A stretch of 32,000 nt of DNA from an uncultured Gemmataceae bacterium (GCA_963804745.1 CAWDRY010000006.1:8668-40667); one strand, 5' to 3'; numbered from the stretch's first letter, positions 15,843-29,083 are shown. Numbers and translations: made by a program. Notes: a model not told the origin generated them from the letters alone.

Positions 15843-16621
15843 TCAGCCCTTGAGCTTTTGAAAGATCCCGGCCAGTTTGGTCTTGTAAATCGTGCGGACC
15901 ATCTCCTCGTCATCGTGGAGCGGCTTGACTGGCACAAGGTCCATCACATCTTCGGCGCTCAGGCCGGAACCGAAGAAGCTCTGTGCTGCACCTGTGACCA
16001 TCGCGGCTAGCCCCGCATCCACTTCACCGAGAGACAGACCGAACGATAGACCCAGTTCGCGGAGTTGCTGGAACTGGAACCAGAGGTAAGTCGGTCCCAT
16101 CGCCGTCAGCACTGCATAGGCTTCCAGTTTCTCCTCCGGCACGACTGGGCAAGCCCCCAGCATACGCAAGAGGTCCAGCACTTTCCCGCGGCCCCATTCA
16201 TCGAGGCCCGGCCCGAAACTGACGGGGTTGTAGCCCGCGCCAATCAGCGACGGCGCATTCGGGATGGTGCGGGCGATGCGGGCAAAGCCGTCCAGCGCTG
16301 CGCTCAACTTCGAGATGGTGATCTTGGGGGCAAGGGACACAACCACGGCATCGGGCCGCAGATGCCCGGCCAGCGGCTTGAGGGCTTCCAGCAATACGGG
16401 CGGGTGGACAGCCACGAATACATGGTCCATATGTCCCAGCGCCAGGGCGCATCCGGCGTGCTGCGGATGGTCGGGAACTGCTCCTTGAGCTTCTTCAGTA
16501 CCTCGCTGTTCGGCTCACTGACGACCACCTCGGCAGGCATGTACTCGGCCCGTTGCCAACCGCTCAAGATAATCCGAGCGATCCTTCCTCCACCGATAAA
16601 ACCGACTGTGTTTGCTGCCAT
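15843..16621 (-). CDS. Pyrroline-5-carboxylate reductase (ProC)-like protein, one apparent frameshift
   Basis: NTVGFIGGGRIARIILSGWQRAEYMPAEVVVSEPN in ORF 16304-16687 continues as MDHVFVAVHPPVLLEALKPLAGHLRPDAVVVSLAPKIT in ORF 15843-16430. Confidence 0.75.
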
Positions 16622-16769
16622 GATATTATCTCCTGTTACACAATTCATTTCCTGCTCACGCGCTGGCGGCCGCCGGAAACCAGCCACGGGTCCGGTTACA
16701 GGCGGCGCAGACGGTCAGCATCACCGGCACTTCAACCAGTCCTTTCACCCGAGAACTTTGGCAAGCAAG

Positions 16770-17063
16770 TCAGCAACAATCCGTATCCGAACAGCAGCAG
16801 CTAGACTTGCCGCCCCGCAGTGCCCCCTTGATGATCGCCGTGGCACAACCAACGCCCGAGCGGACCGAGATGGCTCCTGTGGGGCAGTTCTTGGCGCAGG
16901 CGCCACACTCCATGCAGGCATCACGGTCGGCGATCCTCGCCTTCCTGGTCTCAATGGCAAACACAGCATGCGGGCAGACGTTGACGCACATGCCGCAACC
17001 GTTGCACCGTGATTCCACGAGAGTCAAAGTCACGGAGTCTGACAAGTAGCGCAAGCCAACCAT
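16770..17063 (-). CDS. hgcB: HgcB, 2[4Fe-4S] ferredoxin of mercury methylation
   Basis: VESRCNGCGMCVNVCPHAVF...DRDACMECGACAKNCPTGAI...SSCCCSDTDCC; 11 bp after the hgcA C-terminus. Confidence 0.9.
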   Translation of the reverse strand: MVGLRYLSDSVTLTLVESRCNGCGMCVNVCPHAVFAIETRKARIADRDACMECGACAKNCPTGAISVRSGVGCATAIIKGALRGGKSSCCCSDTDCC

Positions 17064-17074
17064 CACCGTCCTCC

Positions 17075-18222
17075 CTATGCGAACCTTCCAGCTAGCCAAA
17101 GGACCATACCGCATACTGCGGCCGTAATCTGGAGCGGGATGGCGACGCGGGTCTCGCGGCGGACACCCGAGAGCGAGGTAAAGGTCGTGGCCCCGGTGAA
17201 ATTCATGGCCATGAAGCTGGCCATGGGCAGGAATGAACAAGCACCAGCCGGCCAACCCGAGCCAGCCGCCCAGGAAACCCGGAGACCGGCCCCAGAAACC
17301 AATCATTCCCAGGACGAATGCCAAACCGATCCACGTTCCCTTGAGAGCAAATGCCCGCCCCGGAAGCCAGGGGAGCAGTGCGGCGGTCAACACGATGCTG
17401 CCCAGGTACGTTGCGAGGAAGCAGGGCGGCCGAGCAGGCTCCTACGTACAGGGTACGCGAAATCGAGTAGCCATCCGCACCCAGTCCGGCCAGGATGAAG
17501 AAGATGGCCATCGTCCAGCATGCCCACTTCATCGAGAGGAGCACCTCCACGGGGGCCAGCACCAAGCGATCCCGAAGGGGGAACTGCACCTGCCGCATCG
17601 ACGGCGTGGCCGTCATTCCGGCAGCAAGGAACGCAGGCAGGTCCTCGGCACGCACTGGGCCGTACACGACACGAAATCCGCTCCGCTTCTTCACCTCGTG
17701 GGCGGCTACGCCAGCCGCGCCAAGCTGCGGCACAACCAGGGTGCGATGAGTGACTACTTCTGCCAGTCTGGCTGCCTCGATCCGACAGACCAGCTCGTCG
17801 GTTCCAAAAGTGCCCTTGCCGGCAGCGCACCAGACGTTGACACCCCGGGTATCCAGGACAAGAATCCAGGCGTCCAACCCGCCGAGATTGGAACGGAGCC
17901 GGTCGAAACTCAGCTTGTAGTTCGCCGAAACCAGGACCGGCGAGTCTGATCCGGGGGTGCCGACCGCGTAAAGCCCCGGCGGGACGCAGTAGCTCATTCG
18001 CCCGATGGCCCAGCGGACCATACACGTGCCGAGATGGTCGGCAAGCCGCAACTGCGTGCCAATCCTGGGGACCGGACCAATCGCGGACGCCACGGTTCCT
18101 GTGATCCAGGACGCACGACAGGATTGTTCCTGCTCACCGCACGGATCTCGCTGGCAACATGCGTCTGTGACAGCCTGTTGAGGCTTGCAACAGCATTTTG
18201 CAGACAATTCGGATTCTTTCAT
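17075..18222 (-). CDS. hgcA: HgcA, corrinoid mercury-methylation protein (read through two apparent frameshifts near 17430 and 17230)
   Basis: Cap-helix motif GVNVWCAAGKGTFGTDELVCRIEA; TM part PWLPGRAFALKGTWIGLAF; C-terminus MNFTGATTFTSLSGVRRETRVAIPLQ in the third frame. Confidence 0.9.
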
Positions 18223-18247
18223 GAAGGATCTCTCTTGAGATTTCCAC

Positions 18248-26813: not shown

Positions 26814-27272
26814 GATTTGTTCAGCTCCTCTTCTGCTTGAGACCGCATCACGGACAAGTATGCCTGGGGGTCCATTAGCCTGGCGCGATCGGCCTCCCAG
26901 CTTGTGGTTTCGATCACCGCCAGCCAACCCTCGCCATAGGGATCCTGGTTGACAAGCTCTGGGGTCAACTCAAGGGCCGGGTTGATCTCGATAATCTCTC
27001 CGGCAACTGGGGAATAAATGCTCACGTAGGCCTTGATCGTCTCTATCTCAGCAAACACTCCCCCGGCCGCAATCTTGGCACCTGGAGGATAGACCTGAAC
27101 GAAAGCAATATCGCCGTTGCGCTGTTGCAGGTAGTCGGTGATGCCAATGCGAACCTGACCCTTCTTCTGAGTGCTCCAGCCACAACACCCATATTCCGTC
27201 CGGGCTGTAGAGGCGGTCTGTGGCCACCCGAAAAATGAACTTGTCAACGGTTGTTTCGAGGTACTCTGGCAT
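26810..27272 (-). CDS. GcvH-like lipoyl-carrier protein, one apparent frameshift
   Basis: MPEYLETTVDKFIFRVATDRLYSPDGIWVLW in one frame, then KKGQVRIGITDYLQQRNGDIAFVQV...ETIKAYVSIYSPVAGEIIEIN with the lipoyl-lysine motif in the next. Confidence 0.85.
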
Positions 27273-27281
27273 AGCGTTGCC

Positions 27282-28693
27282 TCAACGAGAATGTGCATGG
27301 ATGGCGCCGTCACGGAATCCGAGTGCTGCTTCCAGCATCGCTTCCGGCAATGTGGGATGGGCATGCGTTGTCCATGCCAGATCGTCGGCGGTAACGCCTG
27401 CCTGCACAGCCAGTGCCCCTTCGGCGATGAGGTCGGTAGCGTGCGGCCCCAGCAGGTGAACGCCCAGAATCCGTCCGCTCCCGGCCTCGCAGACGAGCCT
27501 GGCGAGTCCGTCCGTTTCACCCAGGATGCGGGCTCGCGGATTAGCCGAGAACGCAAACTGTGTGACCTTCACATCCGCGCCTGGCTCCGCGCCTGGGCCT
27601 CAGTCAGCCCGACGCTGGCGACCTCGGGCCTGGTGAAGACGACATTAGGTACCGAGCGGTAGTCCATTCGCCGTTGTCCCCCCGTGGCGTTCTCGGCGGC
27701 GACCCGTCCCTCGACCATCGCCTTATGGGCCAACATCCAGCCTCCGATCGCATCGCCGATCGCCCAGACATTCGGCAGGTTCGTCGCCAGATGTTCATCG
27801 ACGGCGATGGCCCGCCCGTTGAGCCGCAAACCGACTTCCGCGAATGCTGGTCCCGAAGTGTTCGGCCAGCGACCGGTGGCCACCAGGACCAGCTCGCCCT
27901 CGAAGACCGCTTCGCCGCCGGCACCCGTGGCTAACACTCGGAGCGTGTCACCAGTCCGCTCTATCCGCTCGACGGTGGTCCCAGTGTGGATCTGCATACC
28001 GCGGCGACGTAGCAGGATTTGAAGGCGTTTCGCGATCGCTTCATCCGTTCCGGTGGGAAGCACAGAGGACGCCATCTCCAGGACTGTGATCCGACTGCCC
28101 AGGGCTTCGTAAATGCAGGCGAATTCCAGCCCGATGACCCCACCACCAATCACCACGAGGCGCGGGGGCACCGTGTCGATGTTCAAGGCTTCGGTACTCG
28201 TTACCACGCCAGGAAGGTCTCGGCCTTCGACCGGTGGCACCGACGTAACGGACCCGGGTGCAAGAATGATCCGGTTGGCCGACTGCTCGTGCGTGCTCCC
28301 ATCGCCTGAATCAATCAATAGCGCATTCGGCCTGAGCATTCGAGCGCTGCCGTACAGCACCTTCACGCGGCGGGCCTTCAGTAGTTGTTCGACTCCCCCG
28401 ACAAGCTGATCAACCACGGTACGTTTGTAGGCCATCAGGCCGGACAGATCCACCGAAACCTGTGGGATGGACAGTCCGTACCCGCTCGCCTGCCTCGACC
28501 GAACGAGCAACTCCGCCGTGGTTGTCAAAGCTTTAGTTGGGATGCAGCCGATGTTGAGACACGTCCCGCCGATCTTGTTCTTCTCAACCAGGACCACACG
28601 CGCGCCCTGCCGCGCTGCGCAGAGTGCTGCGACATAGCCGGCTGGGCCTCCGCCCAAAATGGCAACGTCCACAGGTTCGGTGGGTAACGACAT
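27282..28693 (-). CDS. Dihydrolipoyl dehydrogenase, one apparent frameshift near 27580
   Basis: ILGGGPAGYVAALCAARQGARVVLVEKNKIGGTCLNIGCIPTKAL; C-terminal GVHLLGPHATDLIAEGALAVQAGVTADDLAWTTHAHPTLPEAMLEAA. Confidence 0.92.
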
Positions 28694-28750
28694 AATGCCC
28701 TTCAATTGGCGAGTTGGGCAAATCCGCCAGTGCAAGACGAACAAAAACTG

Positions 28751-29083
28751 CTAGCACTTGCAGGCCAGCAGCTTTTGCGAGCGACCGATGCCCTCCTTGA
28801 CAATGCTTTCAGCGCATTCCAGGAAGTCGAGCACGCACTTGATCCGCAGCCGGTAGAAGACCATCGAGCCGCGTTTCTCAGCTTCGACGATCCCAGCCTG
28901 CTTGAGGATCGTCAGATGTTTGGACACGGTGGACATGTCAGACCCGACCAAATCGGTCAGCTCACACACGCATTTCTCCCCCGCCCGGCCCAGTTCATCC
29001 ACCATAAGCAGCCGCGCAGGATGGGCCAACGCCTTGATAATGGCGGCTCGTAACTCGTAACGTGCTTGCGTCTTGGCGTCCAT
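28751..29083 (-). CDS. arsR: ArsR/SmtB-family regulator with CVCEL metal(loid)-site motif
   Basis: IKALAHPARLLMVDELGRAGEKCVCELTDLVGSDMSTVSKHLTILKQAGIVEAEKRGSMVFYRL; terminal CKC. Confidence 0.9.
   Translation of the reverse strand: MDAKTQARYELRAAIIKALAHPARLLMVDELGRAGEKCVCELTDLVGSDMSTVSKHLTILKQAGIVEAEKRGSMVFYRLRIKCVLDFLECAESIVKEGIGRSQKLLACKC

What the first reader, a model, noticed from the sequence alone, without database searches (positions are those of the whole stretch)
15843..29083. About 13 kb ArsR-headed co-directional array ending in hgcAB: candidate undescribed metal(loid)/thiol/methylation system
At least 15 same-strand genes with short gaps or overlaps run from an ArsR regulator with a CVCEL site to hgcAB and a ProC-like gene. 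They combine lipoyl redox proteins (DLDH, GcvH-like), OsmC, disulfide/thioredoxin proteins, three DGC proteins, a CcdA-like permease, a DUF1573 protein, an exported SAM methyltransferase and ChrA. hgcAB near ArsR-like regulators has been described, but I know of no description of this combination. A metal-induced pathway feeding thiols, reductant or methyl groups to HgcAB is a testable inference.
Basis: partly seen in the sequence, partly recalled or inferred. Interest (0 to 1): 0.9.

Follow-up and report, generated by a model that had tools for sequence, protein, structure and literature searches.

The report
Arsenic-regulated thiol-relay operon carrying hgcAB
A Planctomycetota contig carries the mercury-methylation genes hgcAB as the last genes of a long arsenic-repressor-headed operon of cysteine- and lipoyl-based redox proteins; that operon is widespread without hgcAB, so the pair looks like optional cargo rather than the purpose of the array.

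Summary
Two caveats apply: at least 8 frame breaks interrupt 7 genes, probably assembly errors, and the "CcdA-like permease" and its neighbours are ArsG and two ArsF.

The array is composite. Its head (ArsR, lipoamide dehydrogenase, lipoyl GcvH-like, OsmC-like, ArsE, DGC1, DGC2) and middle (DGC3, thioredoxin, ArsF, ArsF, ArsG) form an autonomous module of arsenic islands. Thirteen DGC1-centred metagenome loci with at least 8 kb downstream lack hgcA, as do two close relatives.

Conversely, 8 of 58 species-level hgcA loci have ArsF/ArsG upstream on the same strand, 3 have GcvH-like plus DGC1/DGC2, and none has this dehydrogenase or OsmC. ChrA is unique to the window, and the ProC-like gene is inverted in the closest relative.

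Some coupling is real. hgcAB sits directly behind arsG-type arrays in Planctomycetota and Bacteroidota clades, and at least 9 protein clusters are natural ArsE::HgcA fusions.

hgcAB inside ars neighbourhoods is published; this module and the fusion were not found in the searched literature. I rate it a new variant of a known kind, interest 0.55.

The parts
29109..29144 (-). Promoter-like site (TTGACA-17-TAAAGT, 29144-29116) with an inverted repeat of the type ATTTGGC-N6-GCCAAAT (29109-29128, 2 mismatches) overlapping the -10 box; putative ArsR operator
   Evidence: TTGAC, ATTTGGCTAAA and the downstream half-site are conserved in 8 related loci. The palindrome is perfect in L001, L163, L125 and L152.
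28751..29083 (-). ArsR/SmtB metalloregulator with a CVC site
   Evidence: Pfam HTH_5; NF033788, 84 bits against a cut-off of 55. C38 is conserved in 94% and C40, C83 and C90 in 88% of 34 homologues.
28704..28723 (.). Second operator-like palindrome (2 mismatches) in the ArsR-DLDH gap
   Evidence: About 1.8 matches with up to 3 mismatches are expected per window by chance, so this is suggestive only.
27282..28693 (-). Dihydrolipoyl dehydrogenase (redox disulfide CLNIGC, C-terminal HAHPTLPE); frame break near 27581
   Evidence: TIGR01350, 495 bits against a cut-off of 408.8; MerA model below its cut-off. Frame break seen.
26810..27272 (-). GcvH-like lipoyl carrier protein (lipoyl Lys80); frame break near 27172
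   Evidence: Pfam GCV_H. NCBIfam GcvH 112.4 bits, below the 117 cut-off. The lysine is conserved in 59 of 60 sequences.
26358..26813 (-). OsmC-like protein of a non-canonical Cys57/Cys78 subfamily; its GTG start overlaps the GcvH stop (GTGA)
   Evidence: Pfam OsmC. Cys57 and Cys78 are invariant in 27 sequences. The canonical second Cys is Ser in the alignment to 2onf.
26111..26356 (-). ArsE / MTH895-type small thioredoxin (CSRC)
   Evidence: Pfam Thioredoxin_3; TIGR00412, 100.9 bits against a cut-off of 62.
25675..26088 (-). DGC1, a cytoplasmic DGC-domain protein with four invariant Cys
   Evidence: Pfam DGC; Cys conservation; AF2 model with pLDDT 91 and no PDB match at E<0.001.
24849..25574 (-). 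DGC2, a DGC domain followed by a C-terminal extension whose CSCSC motif has two invariant Cys (C152, C154)
   Evidence: Pfam DGC. Adjacent to DGC1 in 80 of 80 DGC1-centred loci. Cys conservation; the extension has no Pfam hit.
24178..24729 (-). DGC3, a twin-arginine (RRRFLQ) exported DGC protein; a promoter-like site lies at 24757-24728
   Evidence: Pfam DGC, 106 bits; weak match to a TAT model; promoter scan.
23642..24136 (-). Membrane-anchored thioredoxin (CIPC)
   Evidence: Pfam Thioredoxin; CxxC invariant.
22894..23567 (-). ArsF-family protein 1 (N-terminal TM anchor, CPTC); frame break from an 8-nt insertion near 23462
   Evidence: NF040494, 103.9 bits against a cut-off of 60; indel.
22381..22806 (-). 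ArsF-family protein 2 (signal peptide, CPTC)
   Evidence: NF040494, 107.4 bits against a cut-off of 60.
21429..22226 (-). ArsG-family membrane protein with one invariant Cys in each of two TM segments (CcdA/DsbD-like)
   Evidence: NF040495, 270.8 bits against a cut-off of 200. C23 and C141 are invariant. Homologues in L162 and L164 carry PF13386 DsbD_2.
20351..21352 (-). Exported DUF1573 protein with invariant CGC and CEC motifs; absent from L001 but found before hgcA in L004, L007 and L034
   Evidence: Pfam DUF1573.
19591..20332 (-). Class I SAM methyltransferase with a lipoprotein signal (LTAC); frame break near 20068-20100
   Evidence: Pfam Methyltransf_11; no NCBIfam model above its cut-off; indels.
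18248..19446 (-). ChrA chromate efflux transporter; a window-specific insertion with a frame break near 19190
   Evidence: TIGR00937, 298.9 bits against a cut-off of 171.7. Absent from L001 and from all hgcA loci.
17075..18222 (-). HgcA with a Cys-rich N-terminal extension (CCC...CC) and cap helix NVWCAAGK; two frame breaks in the TM domain (~17421, ~17227)
   Evidence: NF040863, 433 bits against a cut-off of 275; dN/dS 0.19 against L001.
16770..17063 (-). HgcB ferredoxin (two CX2CX2CX3C motifs, C-terminal CC)
   Evidence: NF040864, 128 bits against a cut-off of 99.
15843..16621 (-). ProC-like NADP oxidoreductase (F420_oxidored N-terminal domain); its frame break near 16450 is shared with L001, and the gene is inverted relative to hgcAB in L001, so it is not part of the conserved array
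13908..15831 (+). Convergent Acr3 arsenite efflux gene (ORF 13908-15287) and LMW-PTP-type ArsC (ORF 15226-15831); with ArsR 9162-9569 and MacB/ABC 10871-12784 these make up the rest of the arsenic island
   Evidence: Pfam SBF, LMWPc, HTH_5, FtsX and ABC_tran.

Best explanation
The locus is a composite arsenic island from an uncultured Planctomycetota bacterium, not a dedicated HgcAB pathway. Shown: an ArsR gene with a conserved sigma-70-like promoter and an operator palindrome heads a widespread, self-standing module, and hgcAB has been added to its 3' end in some lineages. Inferred mechanism: when a metalloid releases ArsR, the module builds a thiol/dithiol relay. NADH reduces lipoamide dehydrogenase, which reduces the lipoyl arm of the GcvH-like carrier. 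That carrier then reduces, or exchanges As(III) with, the cytoplasmic Cys proteins (OsmC-like Cys57/Cys78, ArsE with its CxxC, DGC1 and DGC2). ArsG, which has one conserved Cys in each of two membrane segments as in CcdA/DsbD, passes reducing equivalents or the arsenical across the membrane to the exported Cys proteins (ArsF1, ArsF2, the anchored thioredoxin, TAT-exported DGC3 and DUF1573). The relay handles arsenite and organoarsenicals alongside the Acr3 and ArsC genes encoded on the other strand. hgcAB, preceded here by a lipoprotein methyltransferase and a window-specific ChrA, is facultative distal cargo. It probably becomes metalloid-inducible by read-through, and it probably uses the ArsE-type thioredoxin to service the Cys-rich N-terminal extension of HgcA. 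The lipoyl, OsmC and DGC part is not needed for HgcAB.
For: Anatomy and families. Island context with Acr3, ArsC and a second ArsR. The same array occurs in a contig 85-89% identical in nucleotides, L001. Purifying selection on 11 genes, dN/dS 0.06-0.21. Autonomy of the module: DGC1 and DGC2 are adjacent in 80 of 80 DGC1-centred metagenome loci, GcvH-like is present in 60 and ArsE in 52, and hgcA in none; 13 of these loci have at least 8 kb downstream, and L096-L098 run about 7 kb past ArsG. Close relatives L162 and L164 lack hgcAB, while L163 has ArsG directly followed by HgcA and HgcB. hgcA-centred survey: ArsF/G upstream on the same strand in 8 of 58 loci, restricted to a Planctomycetota clade, a Bacteroidota clade and one Phycisphaerales locus. 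ArsE-HgcA link: at least 9 clusters of continuous Thioredoxin_3::HgcA fusions at 54-100% identity, two of them directly behind ArsG-type genes. Relay logic: lipoyl Lys conserved in 59 of 60 sequences and invariant Cys pairs in every component. Relatives add an AhpD-like CMD gene next to the lipoyl proteins (GcvH-like in L162-L164; Lpd is called only in L162), which recalls the known lipoyl-dependent Ohr/OsmC and AhpD systems (PMC5384416, PMC5962072). Promoter and operator are conserved in 8 loci, and no operator copy lies before hgcA. Published precedent: an As-induced ArsR-ArsP-ArsE-DGC operon and As-responsive hgcAB in ND132 (10.1101/2022.10.17.512643).
Against: No transcript, binding or activity data exist, so every electron-transfer step is inferred from family and conserved residues. 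The OsmC-like protein lacks the canonical second catalytic Cys. The window ArsG gives no Pfam DsbD hit of its own, and its family is annotated as an efflux permease rather than an electron carrier. DGC has no structural or functional analogue. At least 8 frame breaks leave open that parts of the locus are inactive in this organism. A promoter-like site before DGC3 and gaps of 100-154 nt allow several transcripts. The metagenome survey returns only the 80 closest DGC1 relatives, and most of those contigs are short.
Confidence: 0.55

Rival explanations
1. One reading: the whole 13-kb array is one integrated, metal-induced pathway whose purpose is to supply thiols, reductant or methyl groups to HgcAB.
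For: All genes are co-directional with short gaps. hgcAB recurs directly behind arsE/F/G, with or without GcvH-like and DGC genes, in two phyla. ArsE::HgcA fusions exist. HgcA has a Cys-rich N-terminal extension and HgcB a CC tail that would need thiol maintenance (10.1101/2022.07.06.499078). A methyltransferase lies next to hgcA in the window, L001 and L006.
Against: The module occurs without hgcAB in 13 of 13 long DGC1-centred loci and in L162 and L164. Most hgcA loci lack every component: 37 of 58 with at least 3 kb upstream have none, OsmC is upstream in 0, and the only DLDH hit is a 26%-identical match in an otherwise unrelated locus. ChrA, DUF1573 and the ProC-like gene vary even between close relatives. 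The methyltransferase has a lipoprotein signal and matches no corrinoid-associated or ArsM model.
Confidence: 0.15
2. Pure mosaic: hgcAB merely landed in, or was transferred with, a metal-resistance island. It is transcribed independently and has no regulatory or biochemical tie to the upstream genes.
For: hgcAB presence or absence varies among close relatives. Cargo between ArsG and hgcA is variable: nothing in L163, DUF1573 in L004 and L007, ArsC in L030 and L034, and MTase plus ChrA here. No ArsR operator copy lies before hgcA. One fusion-carrying locus, L166, lies outside any ars array.
Against: Same-strand placement immediately 3' of arsG-type genes recurs in separate HgcA clades. The gaps here are 25 nt (ChrA to HgcA) and 11 nt (HgcA to HgcB), from the coordinates. 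ArsE::HgcA fusions have been maintained down to 54% identity. As-responsive hgcAB expression through an ArsR is published for ND132 (10.1101/2022.10.17.512643).
Confidence: 0.2
3. The locus is decaying: the frame breaks are genuine mutations, and the array, including hgcA, is non-functional in this organism.
For: At least 8 frame breaks in 7 genes. One is an 8-nt insertion rather than a single-base error. The ProC-like break is shared with L001 and therefore inherited.
Against: L001 has its own single-base indels at other positions, in HgcA, HgcB and Acr3; I take this as a sign of an error-prone assembly, but the assembly method is not known. dN/dS against L001 is 0.06-0.21 for 11 genes, including HgcA at 0.19. 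No premature stops occur other than those caused by the shifts.
Confidence: 0.07

Closest known systems
hgcAB loci embedded in ars gene neighbourhoods (McDaniel et al. 2020, PMC7438021 Fig. 6; Peterson et al. 2025, PMC11984097; Zhang et al. 2023, PMC10349881; ArsR control in P. mercurii ND132, bioRxiv 10.1101/2022.10.17.512643)
   Same: An ArsR-type regulator lies upstream on the same strand, Acr3 and ArsC lie next to hgcAB, and the same idea is raised that hgcAB is tied to metalloid resistance.
   Different: Published neighbourhoods list arsR, acr3/arsB, arsC, arsM and arsA/D. None of the papers searched mentions ArsE/F/G, DGC, GcvH-like, lipoamide dehydrogenase or OsmC next to hgcAB. Here ArsR sits 11 kb and 14 genes upstream of hgcA, not adjacent to it.
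ND132 'operon C': ArsR5-ArsP-ArsE(PF13192)-DGC(PF08859), induced by arsenic (10.1101/2022.10.17.512643)
   Same: The ArsR + ArsE-type thioredoxin + DGC-domain protein combination. Related loci here also carry ArsP between them (L162).
   Different: In ND132 the operon is unlinked to hgcAB and has one DGC gene and no lipoyl proteins, ArsF or ArsG.
ArsEFG organoarsenical (roxarsone/nitarsone) resistance system (Chen, Zhang and Rosen 2019, cited in PMC9144182; primary paper not readable here)
   Same: ArsE, ArsF (two copies) and ArsG all score above the NCBIfam cut-offs.
   Different: ArsE is separated from ArsF and ArsG by three DGC genes and a thioredoxin. The organism is anaerobic and hgcAB-positive. 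The nitroreductase and efflux activities are not testable here, and I suggest a CcdA-like relay role for ArsG instead.
Lipoyl-dependent thiol peroxidase systems: Ohr/OsmC reduced by lipoylated proteins plus Lpd (PMC5384416, PMC5962072); AhpC-AhpD-DlaT-Lpd of Mycobacterium (own knowledge); GcvH-L antioxidant carrier of S. aureus (PMC12440151)
   Same: Lpd, a small lipoyl carrier with the conserved lysine, and an OsmC-fold Cys protein. Relatives add an AhpD-like CMD gene.
   Different: The module is under ArsR control inside an arsenic island. The OsmC-like protein has Cys57/Cys78 instead of the canonical pair. DGC partners are always present. No peroxiredoxin is encoded.
TrxA to CcdA/DsbD to periplasmic thioredoxin-like protein reductant relays (own knowledge)
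   Same: A cytoplasmic small thioredoxin, a membrane protein with one invariant Cys in each of two TM segments, and exported or anchored CxxC proteins.
   Different: The window ArsG gives no Pfam DsbD hit itself; only its homologues do. No cytochrome-c maturation genes are present.

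Membership tests
HgcAB mercury-methylation pair | HgcA equivalog model above its cut-off and the cap-helix motif N(V/I)WCA(A/G)GK | tested here: met
   NF040863, 433 bits against a cut-off of 275; 'GVNVWCAAGKG' read in the translation.
HgcAB mercury-methylation pair | Intact C-terminal transmembrane domain of HgcA | tested here: inconclusive
   Two single-base frame breaks at ~17421 and ~17227 relative to L001. 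After correction the sequence matches the model to its end. dN/dS is 0.19.
HgcAB mercury-methylation pair | An adjacent HgcB ferredoxin with two CX2CX2CX3C motifs and a C-terminal Cys pair | tested here: met
   NF040864, 128 bits against a cut-off of 99, covering model positions 1-93 of 93. The protein ends in ...CCCSDTDCC and starts 11 nt after the HgcA stop.
HgcAB mercury-methylation pair | Hg(II) methylation activity | not testable with these tools
   Needs culture or heterologous expression.
ArsR-regulated ars operon / arsenic island | ArsR/SmtB winged-helix repressor at the head of the operon | tested here: met
   PF01022; NF033788, 84 bits against a cut-off of 55; conserved promoter and palindrome.
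ArsR-regulated ars operon / arsenic island | As(III)-binding Cys triad of the CVCxxC type | tested here: inconclusive
   CVC is present (C38 in 94% and C40 in 88% of homologues) but there is no third Cys in the motif. C83 and C90 are conserved instead.
ArsR-regulated ars operon / arsenic island | Arsenite efflux pump and arsenate reductase in the locus | tested here: met
   Acr3 (SBF, 200 bits) and LMW-PTP-type ArsC, convergent at 13908-15831. The same genes occur in relatives.
ArsEFG organoarsenical system | ArsE, ArsF and ArsG family members all present | tested here: met
   TIGR00412, 100.9 against 62; NF040494, 103.9 and 107.4 against 60; NF040495, 270.8 against 200.
ArsEFG organoarsenical system | Nitroaromatic arsenical reduction and aminophenylarsenical efflux | not testable with these tools
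   Activity assay needed.
Lipoyl-dependent Ohr/OsmC-type peroxidase system | Dihydrolipoyl dehydrogenase with a redox-active disulfide, plus a lipoyl carrier with the modified lysine | tested here: met
   TIGR01350, 495 bits against 408.8, with CLNIGC and HAHPTLPE. Lys80 is conserved in 59 of 60 sequences.
Lipoyl-dependent Ohr/OsmC-type peroxidase system | OsmC/Ohr catalytic Cys pair at the canonical positions | tested here: not met
   The first Cys is retained (C57). The second canonical position is Ser (KYS against KYC in 2onf). The invariant partner is C78 instead. The only NCBIfam hit, SACOL1771-type peroxiredoxin, scores 25 bits against a cut-off of 166.
Glycine cleavage system | GcvH above the family cut-off and gcvT/gcvP partners | tested here: not met
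   112.4 against 117 and 97.3 against 115.85. No gcvT or gcvP was found among the window ORFs scanned.
mer operon / MerA | MerA equivalog score, C-terminal Cys pair and an NmerA domain | tested here: not met
   TIGR02053, 368.6 bits against a cut-off of 454.45. The protein ends in ...GAIHAHSR without Cys and has no N-terminal extension.
CcdA/DsbD transmembrane thiol-disulfide transporters | One conserved Cys in each of two TM segments, and a family model hit | tested here: inconclusive
   C23 (SPCP) and C141 (FCPT) are invariant in 16 homologues. The window protein has no Pfam DsbD hit at E<=10, but homologues in L162 and L164 carry PF13386.
ArsM arsenite methyltransferase / CpaM corrinoid-protein methyltransferase | Score above the family cut-off | tested here: not met
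   Best ArsM-type model 47 bits against 263; CpaM 37 bits against 180.

The most novel reading that the evidence does not exclude
The invariant core (ArsR, ArsE-type thioredoxin, lipoyl GcvH-like carrier, DGC1 and DGC2, with or without Lpd, an OsmC-like and an AhpD-like protein) could be an undescribed metalloid-handling system. In it a dedicated lipoyl dithiol and the four-Cys DGC proteins would capture and pass on As(III) or organoarsenicals. Its repeated physical fusion or adjacency with HgcA would then mean that the native substrate of HgcAB in these lineages is a thiol-bound metalloid delivered by this relay, with mercury methylation as a side reaction.
Probability: 0.15. Interest if true: 0.85.

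Novelty: new variant of a known kind. Interest (0 to 1): 0.55.

Why it matters
The physiological role of HgcAB and the controls on its expression are long-standing open questions in mercury biogeochemistry. This locus and its relatives show three things. In Planctomycetota and Bacteroidota, hgcAB is repeatedly wired to the 3' end of an ArsR-headed thiol-relay operon. An ArsE-type thioredoxin is sometimes fused to HgcA. The lipoyl and DGC part is a separate, widespread and uncharacterised arsenic-island module.

This yields concrete experiments: ArsR operator binding, As-induced read-through into hgcA, and the effect of ArsE on HgcA activity. It also flags a conserved gene set (GcvH-like, DGC1, DGC2, ArsE) that arsenic annotation schemes do not yet name. 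If arsenic de-represses hgcAB in these abundant sediment groups, co-contamination with arsenic could modulate methylmercury production.

Tried and rejected
1. Selenocysteine read-through. The DLDH ORF and the next ORF are in the same frame, separated by TGA. I rejected read-through because the rest of the dimerisation domain lies in another frame, and L001 shows a 1-nt indel there.
2. DLDH as MerA: rejected.
3. The methyltransferase as ArsM or the corrinoid-protein methyltransferase CpaM: rejected, because all scores are far below the cut-offs.
4. GcvH as part of a glycine cleavage system: rejected (no gcvT or gcvP).
5. Riboswitches or other known RNAs: the Rfam gathering scan of the whole window found nothing.
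7. A PDB relative of ArsG: none found.
8. Contig look-up for the best HgcA hit, P0001: not on record.
9. Reading the primary ArsEFG paper (PMID 31059239): not held.
10. Terminator scan: the hits lie inside coding sequence and are uninformative.
11. An ArsR operator copy upstream of hgcA: none found.

Full report
WHAT IS THERE. The finding's coordinates are exact. On the minus strand, 18 genes run from an ArsR start at 29083 to the stop of a ProC-like gene at 15843, with intergenic gaps of -4 to 154 nt.

- ArsR, with the site KCVCELTD.
- Dihydrolipoyl dehydrogenase (TIGR01350, 495 bits against a cut-off of 408.8; redox disulfide CLNIGC; not MerA).
- A GcvH-like lipoyl carrier, just below the GcvH cut-off.
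- An OsmC-like protein.
- An ArsE/MTH895-type small thioredoxin.
- Three DGC-domain proteins, the third with a twin-arginine signal.
- A membrane-anchored thioredoxin.
- An exported DUF1573 protein.
- A class I methyltransferase with a lipobox.
- ChrA.
- HgcA (NF040863, 433 bits against 275; cap helix NVWCAAGK; Cys-rich N-terminal extension CCC...CC of the kind described in bioRxiv 10.1101/2022.07.06.499078).
- HgcB (NF040864, 128 bits against 99).
- A ProC-like oxidoreductase, below the ProC cut-off.

On the opposite strand, converging on the array, lie a second ArsR, a MacB/ABC pair, Acr3 and an LMW-PTP-type ArsC. The whole 9-29 kb stretch is therefore an arsenic island. Rfam finds no known RNA in the window.

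SEQUENCE QUALITY. Seven genes are interrupted by at least eight frame breaks. The closest relative I found is L001, an ENA metagenome contig that is 85-89% identical in nucleotides and collinear with the window. It is intact at the window's break points but has its own single-base indels elsewhere, in HgcA, HgcB and Acr3.

dN/dS between the two contigs is 0.06-0.21 for eleven genes, including HgcA at 0.19 and HgcB at 0.06. Most breaks are therefore most simply assembly errors; I take the scattered private indels in both contigs as a sign of error-prone assemblies, though the assembly methods are not known.

There are two exceptions. One is an 8-nt insertion in ArsF1. The other is the break in the ProC-like gene, which is identical in both contigs and so inherited.

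SOURCE. The best HgcA matches are Planctomycetota (Pirellulales, Thermoguttaceae) MAG proteins at 57-89% identity. The best GTDB species representative reaches only 61%.

IS THE NEIGHBOURHOOD CONSERVED AROUND hgcA? I fetched 80 species-level hgcA loci with up to 10 kb on each side and searched them with 20 window proteins. Among the 58 loci with at least 3 kb upstream, the counts on the same strand upstream of hgcA are:
- any array homologue: 21
- ArsR: 10
- ArsE: 9
- ArsC: 9
- ArsF/G: 8
- Acr3: 7
- DGC: 4
- GcvH-like: 3
- OsmC: 0
- DLDH: 1, a 26%-identical hit in a Bacillota locus with no other array gene

A rough neighbour-joining HgcA tree, without support values, places the ArsF/G-linked loci in three places:
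- A Planctomycetota clade: the window, L001, L004, L005, L006 and L007.
- A Bacteroidota clade: L030, L034, L040 and L053, plus L068, where the ArsF homologue lies on the opposite strand.
- One Phycisphaerales locus, L015.

Loci from Deltaproteobacteria lack ArsF/G and DGC genes next to hgcA; Smithella L077 carries ArsR, ArsE, DGC3 and a thioredoxin about 6 kb upstream on the opposite strand. Bacillota loci carry at most ArsR, ArsE, Acr3 or ArsC.

What sits between ArsG and hgcA varies:
- nothing (L163)
- DUF1573 (L004, L007)
- GcvH-like, DGC, DGC and ArsC (L030, L034)
- a methyltransferase (L006, L001)
- DUF1573, methyltransferase and ChrA (the window)

ChrA is unique to the window, and the ProC-like gene is inverted in L001.

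IS THE UPSTREAM MODULE TIED TO hgcAB? No. A scan of JGI metagenome contigs centred on DGC1 returned 80 loci at 53-85% identity. In them:
- DGC1 and DGC2 are adjacent in 80 of 80.
- GcvH-like is present in 60, ArsE in 52, ArsR in 30, OsmC in 29, ArsG in 10 and DLDH in 8.
- hgcA is present in none. Thirteen of the loci have at least 8 kb downstream of DGC1.

L098 carries the window's order ArsR-DLDH-GcvH-OsmC-ArsE-DGC1-DGC2-Trx-ArsF-ArsF-ArsG at 60-85% protein identity (apart from a partial thioredoxin match), followed by about 7 kb without hgcA. L096 and L097 do the same but lack the DLDH.

Look-ups of close DGC1 homologues gave three more cases:
- L162: ArsR-CMD-DLDH-GcvH-OsmC-ArsE-DGC-DGC-ArsR-ArsP-Trx3-FMN_red-DGC-ArsF-Trx-ArsF-ArsG-C_GCAxxG-DUF1573-ArsP, with no hgcAB.
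- L164: no hgcAB.
- L163: ArsR-CMD-GcvH-OsmC-ArsE-DGCx3-ArsF-ArsF-ArsG-HgcA-HgcB.

The array is therefore composite: an autonomous ArsR-headed module, itself built of two sub-modules that carry separate ArsR genes in L162, plus facultative hgcAB.

EVIDENCE FOR A REAL LINK. Two HgcA hits carried both Thioredoxin_3 and CdhD domains. Their sequences are continuous: an ArsE-like CxxC thioredoxin, then a CCC...CC linker, then HgcA. A second search found at least nine 90%-identity clusters of such fusions, diverged down to 54% identity and drawn from independent JGI, ENA and Logan samples.

Their contexts differ:
- In L165 the fusion follows an ArsG gene and precedes HgcB, beside arsA, arsD and arsR.
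- In L167 it ends an array of Trx3, DGC, DGC and three unannotated genes of ArsF- and ArsG-like size.
- In L166 it lies outside any ars array.

This is Rosetta-stone evidence that the ArsE-type thioredoxin works with HgcA, most plausibly on its Cys-rich extension.

REGULATION. The best promoter-like site in the region is TTGACA-17-TAAAGT at 29144-29116, 32 nt before the ArsR start. Aligning the ArsR upstream regions of eight loci shows invariant TTGAC and ATTTGGCTAAA blocks. It also shows an inverted repeat, ATTTGGC-N6-GCCAAAT, overlapping the -10 box. The repeat is perfect in L001, L163, L125 and L152 and has 2 mismatches in the window.

A second copy with 2 mismatches lies in the ArsR-DLDH gap, and none lies before hgcA. 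A weaker promoter-like site precedes DGC3, the position where L162 has its second ArsR. Planctomycetal promoters may differ from this consensus, so these sites are leads and not proof.

RESIDUE-LEVEL LOGIC. The lipoyl lysine of the GcvH-like protein is conserved in 59 of 60 sequences. Conserved cysteines mark every other component:
- ArsE, the anchored thioredoxin, ArsF1 and ArsF2: CxxC pairs (both Cys invariant except the first Cys of ArsF2, conserved in 85%).
- ArsG: C23 and C141, one in each of two TM segments.
- DGC1: C15, C46, C72 and C76.
- DGC2: the same four plus a CSCSC motif in which C152 and C154 are invariant.
- DUF1573: CGC and CEC.
- OsmC-like: C57 and C78.

The canonical second OsmC/Ohr cysteine is Ser, so this is not a standard Ohr/OsmC peroxidase.

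A high-confidence DGC1 model (pLDDT 91) is a three-layer alpha/beta fold. It has no PDB match at E<0.001; the weak hits are SIS, lumazine synthase and LMW-PTP.

MECHANISM (inferred). De-repression of ArsR by a metalloid would switch on a relay:
1. NADH reduces Lpd, which reduces the lipoyl arm of the GcvH-like carrier.
2. The carrier reduces the cytoplasmic Cys proteins: OsmC-like, ArsE, DGC1/2 and, in relatives, an AhpD-like protein.
3. ArsG acts as a CcdA-like conduit to the exported ArsF, thioredoxin, DGC3 and DUF1573 proteins.

The known lipoyl-dependent Ohr/OsmC and AhpD systems (PMC5384416, PMC5962072; the AhpD-DlaT-Lpd system from my own knowledge) give precedent for the first half. Reduced lipoamide is the classic arsenite target (own knowledge), so the carrier could equally act as an As(III) acceptor. 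hgcAB would ride on this operon and use ArsE.

WHAT IS KNOWN. Four points are published:
- hgcAB flanked by arsR, acr3, arsC, arsM and arsA/D (PMC7438021; PMC11984097; PMC10349881).
- ArsR-dependent, As-responsive hgcAB transcription in ND132.
- An As-induced ArsR-ArsP-ArsE-DGC operon in the same strain (10.1101/2022.10.17.512643).
- ArsEFG as an organoarsenical system (cited in PMC9144182).

In the searchable library, no paper combines hgcAB with ArsF, ArsG or arsEFG. PF08859 appears only in the ND132 preprint. No paper describes an HgcA-thioredoxin fusion. The library is incomplete, so absence there is not proof of novelty.

VERDICT. The novelty class is a new variant of a known kind: hgcAB in an ars island, here attached to an uncharacterised lipoyl/DGC/ArsEFG thiol-relay module. 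Interest is 0.55, for two reasons. It sharpens testable hypotheses on hgcAB regulation and on an ArsE-HgcA partnership, and it exposes a widespread unnamed arsenic-island module. The strong claim of a single dedicated HgcAB pathway is not borne out.

Noticed in passing
window 29109-29144; L001 1662-1681; L163 8070-8089; L125 4901-4920; L152 520-539: A conserved promoter plus the inverted repeat ATTTGGC-N6-GCCAAAT overlapping the -10 box lies upstream of the module's ArsR in distantly related loci. It is a candidate ArsR operator. A second, degenerate copy sits at window 28704-28723.
   Followed up: partly
P0078, P0241, P0067, P0242-P0247; loci L165 228-1652, L166 4211-5635, L167 5089-6516: Natural in-frame fusions of an ArsE-type Thioredoxin_3 domain to the N-terminus of HgcA, in at least 9 clusters down to 54% identity. 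I found them in no paper of the searched library.
   Followed up: partly
window ~16450 (ProC-like, 15843-16621); L001 ~12780: The frame break in the ProC-like gene has identical local sequence in the window and in L001, so it is inherited (a pseudogene or a genuine two-ORF arrangement). The other breaks are private to one contig. The gene is also inverted relative to hgcAB in L001.
   Followed up: partly
window 23462-23470 (ArsF1): An 8-nt insertion relative to L001 shifts the ArsF1 frame. It is not a typical single-base assembly error and may be a real mutation.
   Followed up: no
window 26358-26813 and homologues in 26 loci: The OsmC-like protein is the most conserved gene of the array (in most loci 83-92% identical where neighbours are 55-80%). 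It belongs to a subfamily with invariant Cys57/Cys78 in which the canonical second catalytic Cys is replaced by Ser.
   Followed up: partly
L162 6968-7267, L163 8525-8812, L164 8480-8812: Close relatives carry an AhpD-like CMD gene between ArsR and the lipoyl proteins. The window and L001 lack it.
   Followed up: no
window 24849-25574 (DGC2 residues ~100-241): DGC2 has a C-terminal extension of about 140 residues with a CSCSC motif (C152 and C154 invariant) and no Pfam or NCBIfam match.
   Followed up: no
window 70-7670: The left part of the window encodes large LRR (2605-4002) and LCCL-domain (4115-5641) proteins and several ORFs without family matches. These are unrelated to the island.
   Followed up: no
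window 20351-21352; L004, L007, L034, L162: A DUF1573 protein with invariant CGC/CEC motifs recurs directly upstream of hgcA or at the end of the ArsG sub-module. It matches, below the cut-off, an NCBIfam family (OS_HP2) named as a (seleno)protein family, which hints at a redox or metal-binding role.
   Followed up: no
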